Origin: a virus
Direction: 5' to 3' (one strand)
Virus record (IMG/VR): IMGVR_UViG_3300045972_000112
Location: 3,227-67,226 of that record
DNA: 64,000 nucleotides
Part shown: piece by piece, positions 4,209 through 57,279 of the stretch
Position numbering within the stretch: position 1 is the first letter of the stretch
Layout of the letters: every line of letters begins with the position of its first letter
Made by a program: the position numbers and the translations under genes
Notes under the pieces: generated by a model
The model's input: the letters and a program-made list of their open reading frames with translations, nothing else
The model's database searches: none
What the model was told of the DNA's origin: nothing

Positions 4209-4571
4209 ATGAAGCAGGAATCCCGGTACTGCGACAGGCAGATCACCAAGGGAAAGTCCAAGCAGGAGTGCATGAAGCCGGTGACAGAGCCGACGCTCTT
4301 CGCGCTTCGAAGCACCGCTTACGAGGTGGATCTGTGTGAGCAGCATCTGGCGGAGTTCGAGGTTCTGCTAGCGGACTACATCAAGAACGCCACTCCCACT
4401 CGCGAGGTCCGTGCCACGACATTGAACGGTCGCGCGGTTATGCGCGGGAAGACAGGAACCTTCACCACCAAGGACGTCCGTATCTGGCTACAGAAGAACG
4501 GCTACGACGTCTCTGAGACCGGTCGAATCTCGAACGAACTGATCGAGGAGTACCGGAACAAGACCCGCTAA
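4209..4571 (+). CDS. lsr2: Lsr2-like DNA-bridging protein
   Basis: YEVDL motif and C-terminal VRIWLQKNGYDVSETGRISNELIEEY; AAGGAGG RBS. Confidence 0.85.
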   Translation: MKQESRYCDRQITKGKSKQECMKPVTEPTLFALRSTAYEVDLCEQHLAEFEVLLADYIKNATPTREVRATTLNGRAVMRGKTGTFTTKDVRIWLQKNGYDVSETGRISNELIEEYRNKTR

Positions 4572-4999
4572 CAGCAACCGGCGCAAGCGGAGCAGAGTGT
4601 TGCTGACTGCTTCACCACGAAGTGAATCATCCCGGTCTCGTCCATCATGGTTTCGAGGCCGGGATGTGTCATGAGTGCCCACCAGATGAGGTCCTGCGGG
4701 TCGGCACCGTCCGGTAGCGCGAACATTGTCTATCTCCCCGTTTCTTTGATCGATCTTGTCTGTTTCTTCGACGAGGGGAACGTATCACCTACCACGGACA
4801 CACGAAATCGGCTACCTAACGAAGTCGTGTGACGTGTAGCCTCTAGACATGACCTACGGAATGTTGTACAAGCACGAGGCCGGTAGCACCCGCCTCGGCT
4901 TCGTCGCGCCCGTATGGTCGAACCAGCCGATCCGCTAGGGCCGTCCTCAAACGAGTTGACGTAAGTCCCGGTGTTCACAGCAAGTTGGTAGACAATCCT

Positions 5000-5071
5000 G
5001 CGCCCTTGGTGTAACGGCAGCACAGTGGCTTCCAAACCCACTAGGTCCGAGTTCAAATCTTGGGGGGCGTG
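5000..5071 (+). tRNA. tRNA-Trp(CCA)
   Basis: cloverleaf; loop TT-CCA-AA; C-C mismatch at the base of the anticodon stem. Confidence 0.8.
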
Positions 5072-5096
5072 CTGAGGAACTGGTTCAGACAGTCGC

Positions 5097-5126
5097 TTGA
5101 CAGAAGCGATTCGACTCGGCTAAGTT
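5097..5126 (+). promoter_or_regulatory. sigma70/SigA-type promoter of the tRNA operon
   Basis: TTGACA-18 nt-TAAGTT. Confidence 0.75.
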
Positions 5127-5133
5127 CCTCTTC

Positions 5134-5183
5134 GTGGCCAGGAAGAGCGGCCACAACTTGATCCTTGAGAACTGAACAGGGTG
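5134..5183 (+). promoter_or_regulatory. rrn-type antitermination leader (boxB-like hairpin plus boxA)
   Basis: GTGGCC-AGGAAGAGC-GGCCAC hairpin then GATCCTTGAGAACTGAACAG, resembling actinobacterial rrn leader boxA. Confidence 0.65.
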
Positions 5184-5211
5184 TGAGACCTCGGGAGGAG
5201 ATCCCGAGTAT

Positions 5212-5286
5212 CTAGGTGTGGGGCAGTAGGTCAGCCCGCCTGGTTTGGATCCAGGAGTACCGCAGGTTCGAATCCTGCCACCTAGA
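5212..5286 (+). tRNA. tRNA-Pro(TGG)
   Basis: CTAGGTG/CACCTAG acceptor; CCTGG-TTTGGAT-CCAGG. Confidence 0.9.
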
Positions 5287-5390
5287 CGAGAGGCGCGGAG
5301 AGGGTTCGAATCCCTCCGTGGGCCCCGTTAGCCTTCGGGTGTAAGCGGGACAACCTGCGTGGTGTAACGGCAGCACACGTCTCGCTATAT
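5287..5390 (+). ncRNA. circularly permuted tRNA-like RNA (YrlA/Y RNA-like)
   Basis: order T-arm, loop-closed acceptor stem, D-arm; 5' GAGGCG pairs with 3' CGTCTC. Confidence 0.7.
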
Positions 5391-5464
5391 CGATCCCGTC
5401 CCGGCTTGGTGAAGGGTCCCGTCTGATACGCGGGTATTGCGAGGTTCAAATCCTCGGGGATCGA
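5391..5464 (+). tRNA. tRNA-Ile(GAT)
   Basis: CGATCCC/GGGATCG; CCCGT-CTGATAC-GCGGG. Confidence 0.85.
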
Positions 5465-5653
5465 CAGCCTGGCCACTCCCTCTTTCCGCGATCCTCTATA
5501 GGCGTGGGGGAGCACGTAGGCTCAAAGACGTGGGGTCATCAGTGGCCATAGGGCCCCACGTCAACATCACGGAACCATGTCCAGTAAGGCTGATGGCCTA
5601 AGCCGCCCGCTCGCGCGGGTGATCGCTGGTCTCGGAGGGTGGCTTGATCACCA

Positions 5654-5732
5654 CTACAGCGTCGGATCCTGATCAGGTCCGGCCACAACTCGGAGATCCG
5701 CGTGTTCGTCGGTTCGAATCCGGCACTGTGGC
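5654..5732 (+). ncRNA. tRNA-like domain with acceptor and T-arm but no canonical D or anticodon arm
   Basis: CTACAG/CTGTGG stem; GTCGG-TTCGAAT-CCGGC. Confidence 0.45.
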
Positions 5733-5827
5733 TGCTCCGACTGACCGAAGAACGAGGCGACAGAGCGCGCCTACCCCGCTAGGTCGGGGGTCGACGGGAG
5801 GCTCGTGGTTCCGCAATGCAAGTCAAT

Positions 5828-5901
5828 GGGGTTGTTGCCAAGTGGCCTAAGGCATCTGTCTTCCAAACAGATAATCGCGGGTTCGAATCCCGCCTGCCCC
5901 T
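5828..5901 (+). tRNA. tRNA-Gly(TCC)
   Basis: TCTGT-CTTCCAA-ACAGA; U discriminator. Confidence 0.9.
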
Positions 5902-5905
5902 CTCT

Positions 5906-5978
5906 GCCGTTGGAACTCTTTAGGAAGAGTGCCTGCCTTGTAAGCAGGATGCAGCAGGTTCGAATCCTGTCAGCGGCT
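5906..5978 (+). tRNA. tRNA-Thr(TGT)
   Basis: GCCGTTG/CAGCGGC; CCTGC-CTTGTAA-GCAGG. Confidence 0.9.
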
Positions 5979-6035
5979 CTGGGTGAAGCGAGTCCTAGCC
6001 TGTTGCGACGGGCCGCATATCTCGTGGATCCCTAT

Positions 6036-6109
6036 TGCTCTCTAGGGGAATTGGCAGACCCACCCGGCTCTGAACCGGGAGTGTCCAGGTTCGAGACCTG
6101 GGAGAGCAG
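6036..6109 (+). tRNA. tRNA-Gln(CTG)
   Basis: TGCTCTC/GAGAGCA; CCCGG-CTCTGAA-CCGGG. Confidence 0.9.
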
Positions 6110-6262
6110 CGTGAAGGTGCTGCACACCTTCATCCCGGCCCGAGCGGGACAAATCAACGGGAGTGCGCGGGTGCATCTTAGGGACTCGGATAACGGTAGC
6201 GCTGTCCTGGAATACAGCGTCGGCTGGGCGAGGGTGTGCAGACCGTCTCGCCCAGCCACCAC

Positions 6263-6334
6263 GTCCCCATGGGCTATGGGATAGGCCTTCTCCCTTTCAC
6301 GGAGACAGAGTGGGTTCGAGTCCCACTGGGGGTA
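6263..6334 (+). tRNA. tRNA-Glu(TTC)
   Basis: TCTCC-CTTTCAC-GGAGA; T-arm GTGGG-TTCGAGT-CCCAC. Confidence 0.85.
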
Positions 6335-6452
6335 CTAGATCGGAGCGCCTGATCCGCCCACTCTTTCGGTCGCGGATGAACGGGATTCCTCGGAAAGCGT
6401 CGGGTTCGAGCATGACCGGCGAGGCGGAAAGGATCCCTGGCCCGATCTTTAA

Positions 6453-6525
6453 GGGGTAGTAGCACAACTGGCAGTGCATCTGCTTTGCAAGCAGACGGTT
6501 CGGGGTTCGAGTCCCCGCTATTCCA
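6453..6525 (+). tRNA. tRNA-Ala(TGC)
   Basis: G3:U70 pair; TCTGC-TTTGCAA-GCAGA. Confidence 0.92.
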
Positions 6526-6575
6526 CGCAAGTAGTTCGGCACCTATACCCACCACGCGCACGAGGAGGTTCGACA

Positions 6576-6956
6576 GTGGCCTTGCAGCACAAGCATCTAC
6601 TGGTCCAGGGCAGGATCAACCAGCCCCTTACCGACGAGCGTGAGGCCGAGCGTTGGCTTCACTGGCTCGTTCAGCAGATCGATATGAAGGTCGTACTCTC
6701 GCCTCGCGCGTTCTACGTGCAGGCGGTCGGGAATCGCGGGATCACGGCGAGCGTCAATATCGAGACGTCGCATATCGCGTTTCATATCTGGGACGAGCAG
6801 GAGCCGCCGCTCATCCAGTTCGATCTCTACACCTGCGGCCCGCTCGACCACGAGCAGGTCATAGGACTGCTCAACCGCAAGTTGGACTTCGAGTCGATGC
6901 AGTACCTGGTGCTGGATCGCGAAGATGGATTCCAGGTCACGCACGTCAAGACCTGA
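6576..6956 (+). CDS. speD: S-adenosylmethionine decarboxylase proenzyme-like
   Basis: HKHLLV, GITASVNIETSHIAFHIW, QFDLYTCG motifs; GAGGAGG RBS before GTG. Confidence 0.85.
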   Translation: MALQHKHLLVQGRINQPLTDEREAERWLHWLVQQIDMKVVLSPRAFYVQAVGNRGITASVNIETSHIAFHIWDEQEPPLIQFDLYTCGPLDHEQVIGLLNRKLDFESMQYLVLDREDGFQVTHVKT

Positions 6957-6964
6957 GATCCTCC

Positions 6965-7039
6965 GTCCCCATGGAGGAATTGGGTAGACTCACCGCCCTC
7001 TCAAGGCGGGTCTTGCGGGTTCAAATCCCGCTGGGGATG
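6965..7039 (+). tRNA. tRNA-Glu(CTC)
   Basis: CCGCC-CTCTCAA-GGCGG. Confidence 0.9.
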
Positions 7040-7043
7040 CTCT

Positions 7044-7117
7044 GGTTTCATGGCGCAGTCAGGTAGCGCAGCCGGTTGTCAGCCGGAAGGTCGCGGGTTC
7101 AAGTCCCGCTGGAACCG
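7044..7117 (+). tRNA. tRNA-Asp(GTC)
   Basis: GGTTTCA/TGGAACC; loop TTGTCAG; G discriminator. Confidence 0.9.
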
Positions 7118-7190
7118 CTCGGTGTCTGGTGGGGTCGAGCCCGCCAGTGTTGGAGTTCATATGCCAACAGGGGAGGCCCGCACCTGCAAT

Positions 7191-7264
7191 GCCCCTCTAG
7201 TCCAACTGGCAGAGGCGTCCGGCTTAGATCCGGAATGTTGGGGGTTCGAATCCCTCGGGGGGCA
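7191..7264 (+). tRNA. tRNA-Leu(TAG), short variable loop
   Basis: TCCGG-CTTAGAT-CCGGA; 5-nt variable region. Confidence 0.85.
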
Positions 7265-7422
7265 CGGGAGTTTCTTGCTTCTCCTGCGGCGCGTCCGCGT
7301 CAAGAGCAAGTGGTGGGCCGTGTGGGAGACCGCACCCCCTGTGTTGGCACACTAGGCAGTGTCAGCGCGACACGGTGGGATCCGTGGCATCACAAAGAGA
7401 AACGAAGCGGATCCCACCGTTT

Positions 7423-7496
7423 GCCCGTCTAGTCCAATTGGCAGAGACGTCGGCTTCAAACCCCGAAGGTTCTCGGTTCGAATCCGAGGATGGGCA
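7423..7496 (+). tRNA. tRNA-Leu(CAA), short variable loop
   Basis: GCCCGTC/GATGGGC; TCGGC-TTCAAAC-CCCGA. Confidence 0.8.
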
Positions 7497-7498
7497 CT

Positions 7499-7573
7499 GT
7501 GACAGTAGTTCAGCGGTAGAACGCCCGACTGTGACTCGGGTCGTCGCGGGTTCAAATCCCGCCTGTCACCCCA
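7499..7573 (+). tRNA. tRNA-His(GTG), encoded CCA, no G-1
   Basis: CCCGA-CTGTGAC-TCGGG; C73-CCA; T at -1. Confidence 0.9.
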
Positions 7574-7644
7574 GGTCCTGTGGCTGAAAGGCTAGGCAGC
7601 GGGTTGCAACCCCGTCGATGTCGGTTCGATTCCGGCCAGGTCCT
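7574..7644 (+). tRNA. tRNA-Cys(GCA)
   Basis: GCGGG-TTGCAAC-CCCGT; U73. Confidence 0.88.
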
Positions 7645-7646
7645 CC

Positions 7647-7719
7647 CTCGGTGTAGTTCAATGGATGAACGAAGCGCTACGAACGCTTGCGTATGGGGGT
7701 TCGAGTCCCTTCACCGAGA
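7647..7719 (+). tRNA. tRNA-Arg(ACG)
   Basis: CTCGGTG/CACCGAG; AAGCG-CTACGAA-CGCTT. Confidence 0.9.
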
Positions 7720-7794
7720 CTGGGTACGTCCTCACCTCCCGGCGCTTCTGGGCCTGAACCCCAGCGAGTACCCAGTACGGGTTAACGAGGACAT

Positions 7795-7866
7795 GGGTTC
7801 CTGGCGTAAGCGGAAACGCACTGGTTTGAAGAACCAGGGTTGGAGGTTCGAGTCCTTCGGTTCCCA
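7795..7866 (+). tRNA. tRNA-Phe(GAA)
   Basis: CTGGT-TTGAAGA-ACCAG; two U-U mismatches in the acceptor stem. Confidence 0.8.
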
Positions 7867-7876
7867 CGCAAGATAG

Positions 7877-7949
7877 CGACGTGTGGCGCAATTGGCAGCG
7901 CAGATGGCCTACACCCATCCGGCTGGGGGTTCGAGTCCCTCCGCGTCGA
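7877..7949 (+). tRNA. tRNA-Val(TAC)
   Basis: GATGG-CCTACAC-CCATC (C at 33). Confidence 0.82.
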
Positions 7950-8101
7950 CTGCACCATCCACCCGCGCTCAGGTGAGCATGTAGCGCTAGGACTTCATCT
8001 GCCTAGCGGTGCGCGGGATGCACGGGCCCTGGCTGCGGGTGGCTAAGCCGGGGCCACACTTCCCAGTAAACTAGAGGCTGGACAAGCCCGGGAGATCAAC
8101 G

Positions 8102-8437
8102 ATGGCTCATAGCAACGCCCTCTACCAGCGCGACGTTCGACTCAAGTCGGTGGAGCGGGTGACTGTAGCCATCGCTGCGGTGGCGCTAGCGGCCACCTGC
8201 GCCCTAGTGGCTGGGATCGAGGCAAGCGCTCACCGAACGGTAGCCGCCCCGGTTCCTGGCCCGACCGTGTACGTCACAGAGACGGTAACGGTGACCCAAA
8301 CTCCAGTGCCTACCCCAAGCCCGCGTCATGCGATCAAGGCAGTAGCCGCGCCGAAGCCGTCACCAACACCGCACAAGGTGCTGTACACCCCAAAGACGAC
8401 CCCCAAGAAGCCGGTAGCGGCTAGCGGGGGCAGTTAA
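8102..8437 (+). CDS. secreted or membrane-anchored Pro/Thr-rich protein
   Basis: GGAG RBS; hydrophobic segment then PT/PK-rich linker. Confidence 0.65.
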   Translation: MAHSNALYQRDVRLKSVERVTVAIAAVALAATCALVAGIEASAHRTVAAPVPGPTVYVTETVTVTQTPVPTPSPRHAIKAVAAPKPSPTPHKVLYTPKTTPKKPVAASGGS

Positions 8438-8521
8438 TCCTCTGTCGCCTAACGGTATGGCACCTGGCTGTTAACCAGGCGTGGCGCAAGCCATGTACAG
8501 GTTCGAATCCTGTCGGAGGAG
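8438..8521 (+). tRNA. tRNA-Asn(GTT) with long variable arm
   Basis: TCCTCTG/CGGAGGA; CCTGG-CTGTTAA-CCAGG; V-arm CGTGGC-GCAA-GCCATG. Confidence 0.85.
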
Positions 8522-8533
8522 CGCAAGAACTAC

Positions 8534-8614
8534 GTGTCGGAGGCCCCAAGGTGGGGCTGGTGGCTGTAACCCACCCGCTTTCGAGCATGCTTGGTTCGAT
8601 TCCAAGTCGGCACA
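8534..8614 (+). tRNA. tRNA-Tyr(GTA)
   Basis: GGTGG-CTGTAAC-CCACC; V-arm GCT-TTCG-AGC. Confidence 0.88.
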
Positions 8615-8770
8615 CAACCTCTCAAACTGCCCGGTGATTCTGAGTCCGTGTTGGGGAATCGGGGCAAGTGGGAAGGCCAGGGTAGACCCGGCGTCCTTAT
8701 CTCTCGGGTGAGTCTGAGAAGGGGACGCTACGGACGAAACCGGGGATCCACGGACACCTCGGTCGTCTCA

Positions 8771-8842
8771 GCCGTGATAGTTCAACGGAAGAACGCCCGC
8801 CTCCTAAGCGGGTGGCTGGTGGTTCGAATCCACCTCATGGCA
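8771..8842 (+). tRNA. tRNA-Arg(CCT)
   Basis: CCCGC-CTCCTAA-GCGGG. Confidence 0.9.
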
Positions 8843-8943
8843 CGGGGTCTACGGCCACACTCCGACCCCTACTAAACGGTGTGGCGCTCTACCCTCCTCC
8901 TCCCGGCCACACTGGGCCCAAACTGTCGGGAGGGGGAGGTCCA

Positions 8944-9017
8944 GCCTCGCTAACTCAGTTGGTCAGAGTAGCGGACTCTTAATCCGCGAGTCGTTGGTTC
9001 GAATCCAACGCGGGGCA
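8944..9017 (+). tRNA. tRNA-Lys(CTT)
   Basis: GCGGA-CTCTTAA-TCCGC. Confidence 0.92.
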
Positions 9018-9029
9018 CGCAAGACCTAC

Positions 9030-9410
9030 GGGGTCGACAGGTTTCGACTTGTTGGAGACTCTTCTAGGAGCGACCGGACTTGGGCAGAGTCTTGAAACGG
9101 CCCGACGCAATACTCGGCAACATCGAGAAGGTCAACTTCCTCGGTGCAGTCCGTGACGCCAACCTCGTCACTGTCTGAACCTAGGTAACGGCCAAACCAG
9201 GGACCTAACAAGGCACCCGGGGTTCGGGTAGAACGACCTAGCAACAGAACCTACCCCCCACGCGCGAGGGCAGCGCGCTGACAGTGTCCGGAAAGACGGG
9301 CAGGACTGCTGGAGAGACAGATGAAACACGGACCTCGACGTCGAGGAATGGTCGTACGTCTTAGTCGTTAGTCAATACCAAGGACGGGGGTTCGATTCCC
9401 CCCGACTCCA
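9030..9410 (+). ncRNA. ssrA: tmRNA; tag ORF 9116-9178 GNIEKVNFLGAVRDANLVTV*
   Basis: 5' GGGGTCGACAGGTTTCGAC; 3' GACGGGGGTTCGATTCCCCCCGACTCCA; G3:U pair; ATACTC-G resume context. Confidence 0.9.
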
Positions 9411-9417
9411 AGAGCGC

Positions 9418-9903
9418 TTAGCCAGTAGCACTGAGCGTTGTTGGAGTCGCGTCAATGTCCCCGTACTTGGAAAGGATCTCGTTAGCCCAGGCAACCGCAT
9501 CCCTAGCGCGGATACCAGCGGGTTGCGGTCGAATCCATAGTTCTAGGTTCTCTAGGCGGTTGTCACCCTTTACGCCATTCATATGGTGAACGTTCTCTCC
9601 TTCTGAGAGAAACCTGCCTAGGTGATCCTCCATTACAAGTATGTGCTCGAAGACATATGGGCCTCCGCGAGGGTGCCCATCGATACGACGCATGACGTAC
9701 CCCTTCTTGTGTCGGGCGACACCGCCCTTCCAGTTCCCGTTTGCCGAGCCGGTGTAGTCGGTGCAGGCCCGACACTTCGGGGCTTCCTTAGCCTTTCTCT
9801 CTCCGCAGATGCACTCGTTGTACCTTACGGCGCGACAACGCGGGCAGTTGAGATGGCGGCTTGACGGGGAGAACTCTTCCTTGCATGATCTACAGGTACG
9901 CAT
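9418..9903 (-). CDS. HNH homing endonuclease
   Basis: N-terminal CxxC pairs; EHILVM...VHHMNGVKGDNRLENLELW. Confidence 0.9.
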   Translation of the reverse strand: MRTCRSCKEEFSPSSRHLNCPRCRAVRYNECICGERKAKEAPKCRACTDYTGSANGNWKGGVARHKKGYVMRRIDGHPRGGPYVFEHILVMEDHLGRFLSEGENVHHMNGVKGDNRLENLELWIRPQPAGIRARDAVAWANEILSKYGDIDATPTTLSATG

Positions 9904-9951
9904 GTGGAGAAGCGTATCGTAGAAGCAACAACTCTTGTCTTCTCCACGCAC

Positions 9952-10025
9952 TGCGGTGTGACTGGAGCGGTTCCAGCCCTGCCTCATAAGCAGAACAGAC
10001 GTCGGTTCGAATCCGACCACCGCTA
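9952..10025 (+). tRNA. tRNA-Met(CAT), initiator-like
   Basis: U1xU72 mismatch; loop CTCATAA. Confidence 0.82.
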
Positions 10026-10167
10026 CGCGTTCTTCCCGTGCTTTCCGGGCCACGTAGGCTTTGGTAAGCGTGAACCTCCGAACTAACCGGGTAAGGTTCG
10101 GACGCCAGAGAGCGGCCCGTCGGTGCCGTGAGTGTTCTCTCGTACGGCGAAGATCAGAAACCGACAT

Positions 10168-10251
10168 GGGAGGTCTAACATCGGTGGCGTGTCGCGGTCT
10201 TGAAAACCGTAGGTTGTAACAGACCTGGGGGTTCGAATCCCTCACCTCCCG
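10168..10251 (+). tRNA. tRNA-Ser(TGA)
   Basis: GCGGT-CTTGAAA-ACCGT; long V-arm; G73. Confidence 0.85.
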
Positions 10252-10300
10252 CGTACCCCCCATACTCGCCTCTGATTCAAGCGGTATGGGGGACAGATAC

Positions 10301-10384
10301 GGGCGGCGTCCGGCTGGACGAGGAGCACGATTGCTAGTCGTGTAGCAGGTAGAACTGCTGGGGGTTCGAGTCCCTCGCTGTCCG
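10301..10384 (+). tRNA. tRNA-Ser(GCT)
   Basis: CACGA-TTGCTAG-TCGTG; long V-arm; G73. Confidence 0.88.
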
Positions 10385-10423
10385 CGTTCTCACACCCTGT
10401 TCGGTCTCAGGGACACTTGTCTC

Positions 10424-10942
10424 ATGACAGAGACGCTTGAGGTCGGGGATCTGATCCTCCTTCATACGACCGACCCGTTTGCACGCGCGATTCAGGTCTT
10501 CACCCTGAGTCCGTACAACCATGTCGCGTGCTACATCGGTGAGGTCAAGGGAGTCCCGACGGCCATCGAGGCGCACCCCACGGGAATCACCGAGACCCCA
10601 GTATCCACCTGGGACCTCAGCGACCCGGCCAAGGCCCTCATCGTCAAGTTTCCGCTGACCGACGCGCAGCGCAAGAAGGCTGTCATATTCTGGTACACCC
10701 TGCTCGGGCTCAAGTACGGCTGGATCGACATCTTCGCGATGCTGTTCACCAGGCTTGGATTCAAGGCGAAGTGGCTTGTGAATCGCGCGAAGAGCGACAA
10801 GCGCTGGGTGTGCTCGCAGGTTGCGACCGGGGGATTCGCTGCGGCAGGATTCGAGATCCCGTTCGACCCAGCGCGGGAAGACTGGGCTGCCTCTCCGTCC
10901 GACATCGCGAACGCTTACCTTCTCTACAAGGCGGCGCTATGA
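10424..10942 (+). CDS. permuted papain-like NlpC/P60 (YiiX/YebB-type) amidase
   Basis: GDLIL, YNHVA, EAH, C-terminal VCSQV (His before Cys). Confidence 0.8.
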   Translation: MTETLEVGDLILLHTTDPFARAIQVFTLSPYNHVACYIGEVKGVPTAIEAHPTGITETPVSTWDLSDPAKALIVKFPLTDAQRKKAVIFWYTLLGLKYGWIDIFAMLFTRLGFKAKWLVNRAKSDKRWVCSQVATGGFAAAGFEIPFDPAREDWAASPSDIANAYLLYKAAL

Positions 10943-11082
10943 GCACCCTGAGCCCTGAGCAGTTCGGTGCGGTGGCCCCCGCTGCGAGCCAGACATGCCG
11001 TTGTGGGCACACCAAGGACACCCATAGCAGGCGCGTGTGCCAGGACGCGCACTGCGGCTGCGACCGATTCAAGTCCGCCTGA
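10939..11082 (+). CDS. small Cys/His zinc-finger protein
   Basis: CRCGHxxxxH...C...CGCDRF; ATGA overlap. Confidence 0.65.
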   Translation: MSTLSPEQFGAVAPAASQTCRCGHTKDTHSRRVCQDAHCGCDRFKSA

Positions 11083-38280: not shown

Positions 38281-38318
38281 GAAGCGGGGTCGGGAGTTAC
38301 CTCCTGGCCCCGCTTCTT
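38281..38318 (+). terminator. terminator-like hairpin after the capsid gene
   Basis: GAAGCGGGGTCGGGAG-TTAC-CTCCTGGCCCCGCTTC. Confidence 0.7.
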
Positions 38319-57229: not shown

Positions 57230-57279
57230 GAGGGCCCCTCCCCCCGGGACCGAAGTCAACCAGCCGGGGAGGGGCCCTC
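57230..57279 (+). terminator. intergenic hairpin
   Basis: GAGGGCCCCTCCCC...GGGGAGGGGCCCTC. Confidence 0.55.

What the first reader, a model, noticed from the sequence alone, without database searches (positions are those of the whole stretch)
5287..10300. tRNA-punctuated array of self-contained structured RNAs (best candidate new system)
Seen: some tRNAs are 0-4 nt apart, but about a dozen spacers are 50-360 nt, non-coding and fold locally, often closed end to end: 5287-5390, 5465-5827, 5979-6035, 6110-6262 (GGCTGGGCGAG/CTCGCCCAGCC), 6335-6452 (AGATCGG/CCGATCT), 7118-7190, 7265-7422 (ACGGTGGGATCCG/CGGATCCCACCGT), 7720-7794 (CTGGGTAC/GTACCCAG), 7950-8060, 8615-8770, 8843-8943, 10026-10167, 10252-10300. 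GGCCACA(A)CT recurs at 5149, 5681, 8052, 8853 and 8905. Known: RNase P and RNase Z cut at tRNA ends, so spacers are released as discrete RNAs; phages use RNA decoys against type III toxin-antitoxin and CRISPR systems. Inference: the tRNA cluster doubles as an expression cassette for a set of different small RNAs (decoys, antitoxin mimics, scaffolds).
Basis: partly seen in the sequence, partly recalled or inferred. Interest (0 to 1): 0.85.

Follow-up and report, generated by a model that had tools for sequence, protein, structure and literature searches.

The report
Phage tRNA array with structured spacers
The gaps between this phage's tRNA genes are a mixed bag: one holds a back-to-front tRNA look-alike of a known kind, several end in a strong hairpin just before the next tRNA, and the rest look like ordinary spacer, so there is no sign of a new system of a dozen small RNAs.

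Summary
The tRNA coordinates, spacer lengths, quoted inverted repeats and the GGCCACA copies are all real. The window is an actinophage contig related to Streptomyces phage BRock. It carries 24 tRNAs covering all 20 amino acids, plus a tmRNA.

As a set, the 13 spacers fold better than shuffles: mean z -1.87 against -0.32 for 65 control windows (p 9e-5). Five of the 13 do not. Closure end to end is at chance, 6 of 13 seen against 4.3 expected. The excess structure lies in the last 50 nt before the next tRNA.

The spacers hit no Rfam family at E<=10 and hold no tandem repeats. They have no homologue in relatives, and no RNA data exist.

One spacer, 5287-5390, is a circularly permuted tRNA mimic. 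It has the tRNA-like module of YrlA-type Y RNAs but no Ro-binding handle, and six other sequences support it by covariation.

Relatives do carry YrlA-like and manA-like RNAs in their tRNA arrays, so the general idea is already known.

Verdict: a heterogeneous transcribed-spacer set, with one new variant of a known ncRNA. The decoy or antitoxin reading has no support.

The parts
5000..10385 (+). tRNA/tmRNA array: 24 tRNAs covering all 20 amino acids, plus a tmRNA at 9030-9410
   Evidence: ARAGORN. Rfam finds 20 RF00005 hits, 3 hits by the tRNA-Sec model and tmRNA at 65.9 bits.
5097..5126 (+). Sigma-70-like promoter consensus (TTGACA, 18 nt, TAAGTT) in the Trp_Pro spacer, overlapped by a 6+6 palindrome
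   Evidence: Pattern search gives 2 matches in the window against 0.5 expected, and this is the only one on the + strand. It is a consensus match only; function is inferred.
5171..5194 (+). Left arm of a long-range inverted repeat that brackets tRNA-Pro to tRNA-Ser2
   Evidence: the repeat finder pair I1: 24 nt, 88% complementary, 15 nt perfect. In a duplex scan, windows holding the trailer rank 2nd and 4th of 3183.
10382..10405 (+). Right arm of the same inverted repeat; its perfect core begins 3 nt after the last tRNA
5287..5390 (+). Circularly permuted tRNA-like RNA. Closing stem 5291-5295/5378-5382; 4-nt variable loop; T-arm 5300-5316; acceptor-like stem 5317-5322/5354-5359 closed by a 29-nt insert; D-arm 5362-5376. 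It has no anticodon loop and no Ro-binding handle.
   Evidence: 20 of 21 proposed pairs form. The D-arm is 18 of 18 identical to that of tRNA-Trp. Covariation across 7 sequences: 88% of cells paired against 65% in shuffles, 0 of 500 shuffles as high. A Y-RNA model built without the window hits 5291-5382 at 18.6 bits, over model positions 42-112.
5527..5562 (+). 11-bp hairpin inside the 362-nt Ile_Gly spacer
   Evidence: z -4.12, with 0 of 200 shuffles as stable.
5653..5732 (+). Degenerate tRNA-like element: good T-arm, 6-bp acceptor stem, anticodon-like arm, poor D-arm
   Evidence: 19.0 bits with the tRNA-Sec model, E 0.4, below threshold. T-arm shown.
6222..6258 (+). Hairpin ending 4 nt before tRNA-Glu(ttc)
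   Evidence: z -3.93; perfect 11-nt arms.
7372..7420 (+). Hairpin with a 13-14 bp stem, ending 2 nt before tRNA-Leu(caa)
   Evidence: z -5.58, with 0 of 200 shuffles as stable; perfect 13-nt arms.
8893..8939 (+). Hairpin ending 4 nt before tRNA-Lys
   Evidence: z -3.19.
10257..10292 (+). Hairpin ending 8 nt before tRNA-Ser(gct)
   Evidence: z -4.10, with 0 of 200 shuffles as stable.
6576..6956 (+). Protein gene inside the array: S-adenosylmethionine decarboxylase-like, 126 aa
   Evidence: Pfam PF02675, E 3.9e-13; PHROG 3125.
8102..8437 (+). 111-aa ORF of no known family inside the array. The region 7951-8101 is its upstream leader.
   Evidence: ORF list; no Pfam or PHROG hit.
9418..9903 (-). 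HNH endonuclease gene, antisense to the array, between the tmRNA and tRNA-Met
   Evidence: Pfam PF13392, E 1.3e-9; PHROG 20891, E 1e-33.

Best explanation
This is a phage tRNA-tmRNA operon whose long gaps are transcribed spacers of several different kinds. It is not one system.

(1) The Trp_Pro gap carries a promoter-like site and the operon leader.

(2) The Pro_Ile gap is a real small-RNA gene. It encodes a circularly permuted tRNA mimic with the same module as YrlA-type Y RNAs, but cut down to that module alone. Cleavage by RNase Z at the end of tRNA-Pro and by RNase P at the start of tRNA-Ile would release it as an RNA of about 100 nt.

(3) The Ile_Gly gap is composite: a strong hairpin plus a decayed tRNA-like element.

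(4) In four further gaps (Gln_Glu1, Leu1_Leu2, Arg2_Lys, Ser1_Ser2), nearly all the excess structure is one strong hairpin that ends 2-8 nt before the next tRNA. I read these as cis-acting processing or stability elements. After RNase P cleavage the hairpin becomes the 3' end of the upstream fragment and would block 3' exonucleases.

(5) Five gaps are no more structured than shuffled sequence and are plain spacer.

Shown here: the anatomy, the folding statistics, the position of the structure and the covariation of the mimic. Inferred: transcription as one unit, cleavage by RNase P and RNase Z, and what the hairpins do.
For: - Folding of the set and of each spacer.
- The structure lies 3'-proximal. 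In the 9 spacers of 100 nt or more, mean z is -1.86 for the last 50 nt and -0.29 for the first 50 nt (Wilcoxon p 0.012).
- The same trend appears in 22 spacers of Alone3, BRock and Atuin: -1.35 against -0.30, p 0.036.
- Five discrete hairpins have z of -3.2 or lower, and four of them abut a tRNA 5' end.
- No promoter-like site lies between these hairpins and the next tRNA, and terminator-like sites are at chance: 5 found, 5.0 expected.
- The mimic has a register-exact permuted cloverleaf. Covariation across 7 sequences from phage or metagenome tRNA arrays gives 13 of 19 pairs changed on both sides, score 0.619 against 0.198, with 0 of 500 shuffles as high; slid controls pair 40-63% of cells against 88%.
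- A model made only from 13 Y RNAs of other phages covers the whole module at 5291-5382.
- In two other phage contigs the homologous element also abuts a tRNA end.
- tRNA fragments in spacers.
- Only one strong sigma-70-like site lies on the + strand, at 5097-5126.
Against: - No RNA data exist, so transcription, processing and stability are all unshown.
- The 3'-proximal test rests on 9 spacers. The relatives' set is not independent, because Alone3 and BRock are homologous, and it includes gaps with annotated small CDS.
- The permuted cloverleaf is not the minimum-energy fold: -35.0 against -44.8 kcal/mol.
- 6 of 7 acceptor pairs occur by chance in 5.8% of 552 cross-pairings of this array's own tRNAs.
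- True tRNA-tRNA junctions score as high as the mimic with the Y-RNA models.
- The seven aligned sequences were picked with a pattern that fixes the T-loop and D-arm, so only the closing and acceptor helices carry information. In those two helices 77% of cells pair.
- One homologue, L090, has no convincing acceptor-like stem.
- A hairpin 2-3 nt before the cleavage site might hinder RNase P rather than help. This is my own knowledge of leader recognition by RNase P and was not tested.
Confidence: 0.55

Rival explanations
1. Most of the dozen spacers are distinct trans-acting small RNAs (decoys against type III toxin-antitoxin or CRISPR systems, antitoxin mimics, scaffolds), and the tRNA array serves as their expression and processing cassette.
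For: - The set folds better than controls, and more so on the + strand than on its complement in 4 spacers.
- Strong hairpins would give stable 3' ends.
- Relatives place bona fide structured RNAs in tRNA spacers.
- One spacer here is such an RNA.
- Spacer-derived regulatory RNAs are known in E. coli: the 3' external transcribed spacer of leuZ (PMC8383071, passage read).
Against: - Five of 13 spacers fold like shuffles.
- Closure is at chance.
- There are no tandem repeats.
- No Rfam match at E<=10.
- No sequence or translated similarity to 86 loci of relatives.
- The excess structure is a single terminal hairpin in most cases, not a complex fold.
- The shared motif is borderline.
Confidence: 0.17
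2. Neutral debris. The spacers are remains of decayed or recombined tRNA genes and of the gain and loss of array segments. Their hairpins and the permuted element are by-products with no function.
For: - tRNA fragments lie in 2 of 13 spacers.
- Two spacers that follow tRNA-Arg genes share a 25-nt stretch at 76% identity, which suggests duplication.
- Array order differs completely from relatives.
- Spacers are not conserved in relatives.
- Tandem copies of one tRNA give the same cross-complementarity by descent: junctions with 7 of 7 pairs were seen.
Against: - Debris does not explain why structure gathers just before the next tRNA, here and in relatives.
- It does not explain hairpins with z of -4 to -5.6.
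- For the mimic, the same boundaries recur in three sequence-divergent lineages with compensatory changes: it starts at the 3' strand and ends at the 5' strand of the anticodon-stem equivalent. The lineages are the window, L088/L090 and L119.
Confidence: 0.15
3. The strong hairpins are factor-independent terminators or pause sites of the U-tract-less kind proposed for actinobacteria. They would split the array into several transcription units or tune read-through.
For: - Similar GC-rich long-stem hairpins without a clear T-run stand right after protein genes in this phage, for example after the capsid gene at 38281-38316 and at 57230-57279.
- Three of the 8 hairpin-type inverted repeats of the window (arms of at least 11 nt, loop of at least 4) lie in the array.
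Against: - The hairpins end 2-8 nt before a tRNA with no room for a promoter, so full termination would silence the next tRNA.
- The terminator scan is at chance, and none of its + strand sites lies in a spacer.
- An rrn-like antitermination leader was proposed by another note on this window. I did not test it.
Confidence: 0.1

Closest known systems
YrlA-type bacterial and phage Y RNAs (Rfam RF02553; Chen et al. 2014, PMC4201824, passages read)
   Same: The 5287-5390 element has the same permuted tRNA-like module: variable region, T-arm, acceptor-like stem-loop, D-arm, all closed by a stem where the anticodon stem would be. Like Y RNAs in mycobacteriophages and in this phage's relatives, it lies among tRNA genes.
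   Different: - It has no Ro-binding handle. tRNA genes abut it 4 and 8 nt beyond the closing stem.
- Rfam YrlA does not hit it at E<=10.
- HMMs of the 5' and 3' handle parts do not hit the flanking spacers.
- No TROVE gene lies in the 67-kb record, nor in two complete phage records that carry the homologous element.
GOLLD and ROOL RNAs within tRNA arrays of bacteria and prophages (PMC12990946, passages read; Morgado et al. 2020, seen only in that paper's reference list)
   Same: They are structured non-coding RNAs embedded in tRNA arrays, including those of actinobacteria, and some hold a tRNA inside them.
   Different: Those RNAs are several hundred nucleotides long and ornate (size recalled, not checked). 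No Rfam hit to them appeared here, and the longest spacer is 362 nt.
3' external transcribed spacer of the glyW-cysT-leuZ pre-tRNA, an sRNA sponge in E. coli (Lalaouna et al. 2015, as described in PMC8383071, passage read)
   Same: It is a spacer released during tRNA maturation that has a function of its own.
   Different: That spacer acts by base-pairing with known sRNAs. No target or partner is known or testable here.
Stable RNAs 'species 1 and 2' of the phage T4 tRNA gene cluster (recalled; one search found no paper on them in the library)
   Same: They are small stable RNAs co-transcribed and co-processed with phage tRNAs, of unknown function.
   Different: The comparison rests on recall only. 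No sequence or structure comparison was made.
manA RNA motif (Rfam RF01745; Weinberg et al. 2010, PMC2864571, passages read)
   Same: In the relative Alone3, a manA-like RNA fills the gap between two tRNA-Lys genes (47.8 bits, E 7e-10). It is conserved in four other Streptomyces phages.
   Different: It is not present in the window. In the paper the motif is described in 5' UTRs of marine bacteria and cyanophages, not in tRNA arrays.

Membership tests
YrlA / Y RNA (RF02553) | tRNA-like module in permuted order: T-arm, acceptor-like stem-loop, D-arm, closed by a stem | tested here: met
   For 5287-5390, 20 of 21 pairs form in the exact tRNA register. Covariation is shown. Model R3, built from 13 Y RNAs of other phages, covers its positions 42-112.
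YrlA / Y RNA (RF02553) | Ro60-binding helix formed by the 5' and 3' ends (the conserved handle) | tested here: not met
   tRNA genes start 4 and 8 nt beyond the closing stem. Rfam YrlA gives no hit at E<=10. Models R1 and R3 never align their handle positions. nhmmer with the handle halves finds nothing in the neighbouring spacers.
YrlA / Y RNA (RF02553) | Encoded near a Ro60 (TROVE) gene | tested here: inconclusive
   PF05731 does not match the 67-kb record, but the record is estimated to be 68% complete. Two complete records with the homologous element also lack it. A host-encoded Ro60 cannot be checked.
YrlA / Y RNA (RF02553) | Binds Ro60 and tethers it to an effector | not testable with these tools
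   Needs pull-down or binding assays.
Type III toxin-antitoxin antitoxin RNA (ToxI-like) or a phage mimic of it | Tandem direct repeats of a short unit | tested here: not met
   Tandem Repeats Finder returns 0 rows at 4800-10600, minimum score 30. The direct-repeat families found are tRNA arms.
GOLLD, ROOL, manA and other curated RNAs seen in tRNA arrays | Match to the Rfam covariance model | tested here: not met
   No such hit at E<=1 over 4500-11000, nor at E<=10 over 5280-5830, 5975-8105 and 8610-10430.
Canonical tRNA (for the two tRNA-like elements in spacers) | Complete cloverleaf with an anticodon loop, in normal order | tested here: not met
   ARAGORN calls neither element. 5653-5732 scores 19 bits, E 0.4, with a tRNA-Sec model. 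5287-5390 has no anticodon loop.
Intrinsic terminators | GC-rich hairpin followed by a T-run | tested here: not met
   5 sites found against 5.0 expected. The only + strand site lies inside tRNA-Glu at 7025-7038.
Spacer-derived regulatory RNA (3'ETS-leuZ type) | Released spacer is stable and base-pairs with a partner RNA | not testable with these tools
   No RNA run holds the sequence, and the host is unknown.

The most novel reading that the evidence does not exclude
The 5287-5390 element and its relatives in other phage contigs form an undescribed class of handle-less, Ro-independent tRNA mimics. tRNA-processing enzymes cut them out of tRNA operons. They are sealed at the acceptor end and open where the anticodon loop would be. 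They would act as uncleavable decoys for host proteins that grip the tRNA body, such as anticodon nucleases of anti-phage defence, or tRNA-modifying or processing enzymes. In the same operon, the leader hairpins and a leader-trailer helix (5171-5194 with 10382-10405) would organise processing of a 5-kb tRNA precursor, much as the flanking stems do in rRNA operons.
Probability: 0.2. Interest if true: 0.75.

Novelty: new variant of a known kind. Interest (0 to 1): 0.42.

Why it matters
If the handle-less mimic is functional, the tRNA-like module of Y RNAs can work without Ro60. That would give a simple, testable object for asking what that module binds, which the 2014 YrlA paper leaves open (PMC4201824, passage read). 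The finding that spacer structure sits just upstream of each tRNA, here and in relatives, points to a rule for how long phage tRNA precursors are built and protected. For the scan, the practical lesson is that spacers which fold are not enough. Five of 13 spacers here fold like shuffles, and end-to-end closure is at chance.

Tried and rejected
- **Homologues for covariation of the spacers: none found.** Megablast and blastn against 50,697 phage records hit only tRNAs. An AdoMetDC-based scan of viral contigs gave one locus with no tRNAs. An integrase-based scan gave none. The C92-like neighbouring protein has no relative in the 5.8-billion-protein search, only itself. Five complete viral records sharing the capsid gave no DNA match. 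blastn of the spacers against all 83 loci held at that point hit only the AdoMetDC coding part.
- **Sequencing runs.** No RNA holder is listed. Contigs of two DNA runs from pond metagenomes were laid on the array. The second run holds pieces identical to the window, so it offers no variation to use.
- **Trp_Pro spacer as the 5' handle of a Y RNA split by tRNA-Pro.** An alignment looked suggestive. nhmmer with handle HMMs built from 6 Y RNAs gave no hit there, nor after tRNA-Ile, at E<=50. Rejected.
- **BRock-type full Y RNA in the window.** Models R1 and R3 find only tRNA-tRNA junctions, T-arms and the module at 5291-5382. Rejected.
- **GGCCACA as a shared loop motif.** It lies in different structural contexts, and its family-wise P is about 0.05. 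Not established.
- **End-to-end closure.** At chance.
- **Coding relics in spacers.** No support.
- **boxA-like antitermination element after the promoter.** This was a lead from another note on this window. One paper passage I read gives no sequence. Not tested.
- **Supplementary files of papers** were not opened. The YrlA lists in the supplements of PMC4201824 might already include handle-less forms.

Full report
**What the region is.** The window is part of a 67-kb IMG/VR virus record estimated to be 68% complete. It encodes a myovirus-type structural module, an Lsr2-like protein and a large serine recombinase. Its major capsid protein is 76% identical to those of Streptomyces phages BRock, Alone3, LuckySocke, GiJojo and pSt2308.

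ARAGORN finds 24 tRNAs on the + strand between 5000 and 10385, with at least one for each of the 20 amino acids, and a tmRNA at 9030-9410. Rfam confirms the tmRNA and 23 of the 24 tRNAs. tRNA-Ile at 5391-5465 is not listed under the tRNA model. Three gaps hold protein genes: an AdoMetDC-like ORF at 6576-6956, a 111-aa ORF at 8102-8437, and an HNH endonuclease on the opposite strand at 9418-9903.

**Check of the observation.** The spacer coordinates and lengths are right. So are the quoted inverted repeats and the five GGCCACA sites.

Folding was compared with dinucleotide shuffles.
- Three spacers have z below -3.7: Trp_Pro, Leu1_Leu2 and Ser1_Ser2.
- Five lie between -1.75 and -2.4.
- Five lie between -0.1 and -0.9.

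Sixty-five length-matched control windows from the rest of the window give a mean z of -0.32 (sd 0.92, minimum -2.64). The 13 spacers give a mean of -1.87 (Mann-Whitney p 9e-5). The set is therefore more structured than background, but not every member is.

"Closed end to end" does not hold. Six of 13 minimum-energy folds have a helix spanning at least 85% of the spacer, against 4.33 expected from shuffles (P 0.26).

GGCCACA is the commonest 7-mer of the spacers, but the chance that some 7-mer reaches five copies in shuffled spacers is about 0.05. The copies also lie in different structural contexts.

I found no sign of coding. None of 7 spacer ORFs matched a PHROG family. No translated match to 86 loci of relatives scored better than E 0.005.

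**Where the structure is.** In the nine spacers of 100 nt or more, the first 50 nt fold like shuffles (mean z -0.29). The last 50 nt, just before the next tRNA, do not (mean z -1.86; Wilcoxon p 0.012).

Five discrete hairpins have z between -3.2 and -5.6. Four of them end 2-8 nt before a tRNA 5' end: 6222-6258, 7372-7420, 8893-8939 and 10257-10292. The fifth, 5527-5562, is internal.

The same bias appears in 22 gaps of 100-400 nt in the arrays of Alone3, BRock and Atuin: -1.35 against -0.30, p 0.036. Two cautions apply. Alone3 and BRock are homologous, and I did not drop gaps that hold annotated small genes.

The hairpins lack T-runs, and the terminator scan is at chance. Similar hairpins follow protein genes elsewhere in this phage, so a terminator or pause role remains a rival. 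It is weakened because no promoter could fit between a hairpin and the next tRNA.

**The one spacer that can be named.** The Pro_Ile gap (5287-5390) contains, in order:
- a perfect T-arm;
- a 7-nt strand, a 29-nt insert, and a strand that pairs with the first at 6 of 7 positions;
- a D-arm identical over 18 nt to that of tRNA-Trp.

All of this is enclosed by a 5-bp stem in exactly the register of an anticodon stem. The variable loop is 4 nt, the acceptor-to-D connector is 2 nt, and 1 nt stands at position 26. This is the topology of the tRNA-like module of YrlA Y RNAs (PMC4201824, passages read).

A pattern made of the T-loop and the D-arm found 4 viral and 55 metagenome loci. After merging identical sequences, 34 were ordinary tRNA-tRNA junctions, 7 were mixed and 9 were orphans in which ARAGORN calls neither arm as part of a tRNA.

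Seven orphans, the window among them, were aligned. On that alignment the permuted cloverleaf pairs 88% of cells against 65% in shuffles (0 of 500 as high). Thirteen of 19 pairs change on both sides. The slid controls pair 40-63%. The closing stem is 5 of 5 in the window, L088, L090 and L119, with different sequences in three lineages.

In L088 the element starts 2 nt after a tRNA-like gene. In L090 it ends 6 nt before tRNA-Glu, much as in the window.

A model built only from 13 Y RNAs of other phages hits 5291-5382 across its whole tRNA-like module, at 18.6 bits with a rough E of 0.001.

Several cautions apply.
- True tRNA junctions score as high.
- The cloverleaf is 10 kcal/mol above the minimum-energy fold.
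- 6 of 7 acceptor pairs arise in 5.8% of cross-pairings among this array's tRNAs.
- L090 lacks a clear acceptor-like stem.

The element has no room for the Ro-binding handle. Rfam YrlA does not hit it, and handle HMMs do not hit the neighbouring spacers. No TROVE gene lies in this record or in the two complete records that carry the homologue. Each of the three genomes has one copy. I therefore file it as working like the YrlA module but not as a YrlA family member.

**Other parts.**
- The Ile_Gly gap holds a degenerate tRNA-like element at 5653-5732, at 19 bits and below threshold.
- The Trp_Pro gap holds the only strong sigma-70-like consensus on the + strand of the array, at 5097-5126.
- A 24-nt inverted repeat, 21 of 24 complementary with 15 perfect, pairs 5171-5194 with 10382-10405. 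It brackets tRNA-Pro to the last tRNA. In a duplex scan of 3183 windows, those holding the trailer rank 2nd and 4th. This could be a leader-trailer processing helix of the rRNA-operon kind (recalled analogy), or a DNA-level site. It was not tested.

**What relatives show.** The arrays of the BRock-like phages are rearranged beyond alignment with this one. Even so, their unannotated tRNA spacers contain conserved structured RNAs.
- A YrlA-like RNA lies next to a Ro-like gene. Sixteen of its 42 pairs show compensatory change across five phages.
- A manA-like RNA lies between two tRNA-Lys genes.
- Contig L091 has three Y RNAs in tandem in its array, and a TROVE gene.

Structured RNAs in tRNA arrays are also in print for GOLLD and ROOL (PMC12990946, passages read).

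**Decoy and antitoxin reading.** The array has no tandem repeats. The spacers match no Rfam family at E<=1 or E<=10. No RNA data exist. Nothing tested here supports that reading, and it cannot be excluded for the few strongly folded spacers.

**Earlier notes of this scan.** I read these after my own analysis. They describe the same permuted mimic, the promoter, the long-armed tRNA-Asn and two possible pseudoknots on this window. They also describe permuted tRNA mimics in other phage tRNA arrays. They are unchecked AI notes. I tested the mimic and the promoter pattern myself. I did not test the pseudoknots or the antitermination idea.

**Verdict.** This is a heterogeneous set of transcribed spacers in a phage tRNA operon. 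It holds one new, handle-less variant of a known tRNA-mimic RNA and a recurring leader hairpin before tRNAs. I put 0.55 on this reading, 0.17 on the multi-sRNA cassette, 0.15 on neutral debris and 0.10 on terminators.

Noticed in passing
window 8438-8521: tRNA-Asn(GTT) is 84-85 nt long and has a long variable arm, a feature normally limited to Ser, Leu and Tyr tRNAs in bacteria (recalled). Another phage contig (L089:4095-4182) has an 88-nt tRNA-Asn(GTT).
   Followed up: no
window 5171-5194 and 10382-10405: A 24-nt inverted repeat (21 of 24, 15 perfect) brackets the array from tRNA-Pro to the last tRNA, just downstream of the promoter-like site. It could be a leader-trailer helix or a DNA-level site.
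   Followed up: partly
window 6576-6956: An S-adenosylmethionine decarboxylase-like gene with a good ribosome-binding site sits inside the tRNA array. Its only relative in viral contigs is 50% identical and has no tRNAs nearby.
   Followed up: partly
window 9403-9449 and 9418-9903: An HNH endonuclease gene lies antisense inside the array. A 19-nt-arm hairpin overlaps both the tmRNA 3' end and the end of the HNH gene. ARAGORN's second 'tmRNA*' call at 9321-9786 overlaps both and is probably spurious.
   Followed up: no
window 5391-5465: tRNA-Ile(GAT) is called by ARAGORN but is not listed by the Rfam tRNA model at E<=1. It scores 20.6 bits with the tRNA-Sec model.
   Followed up: no
window 7735-7759 and 8899-8923: The spacers after the two tRNA-Arg genes share a 25-nt stretch at 76% identity. 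This suggests that a tRNA and its trailing spacer were duplicated together.
   Followed up: partly
L083:4114-4346 (Streptomyces phage Alone3): A manA-like RNA (RF01745, 47.8 bits, E 7e-10, below the gathering score of 55.2) fills the unannotated gap between tRNA-Lys(ctt) and tRNA-Lys(ttt). The gap is conserved in LuckySocke, pSt2308, Wakanda and GiJojo.
   Followed up: partly
L083:1913-2064 (Alone3) and L085:669-821 (GiJojo): A second Y-RNA-like hit (about 70 bits with model R1) overlaps a gene annotated as tRNA-Ser(gct) in Alone3 and as tRNA-Arg(cct) in GiJojo. The 74-nt 'tRNA' may be part of a Y RNA.
   Followed up: no
L091:7595-8099: A 153-kb phage contig with a TROVE gene carries three YrlA-like RNAs in tandem within its tRNA array (98, 74 and 46 bits).
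   Followed up: partly
The GGCCACA copy at 8905 has only a short palindromic GGCC partner. Significance is borderline.
   Followed up: partly
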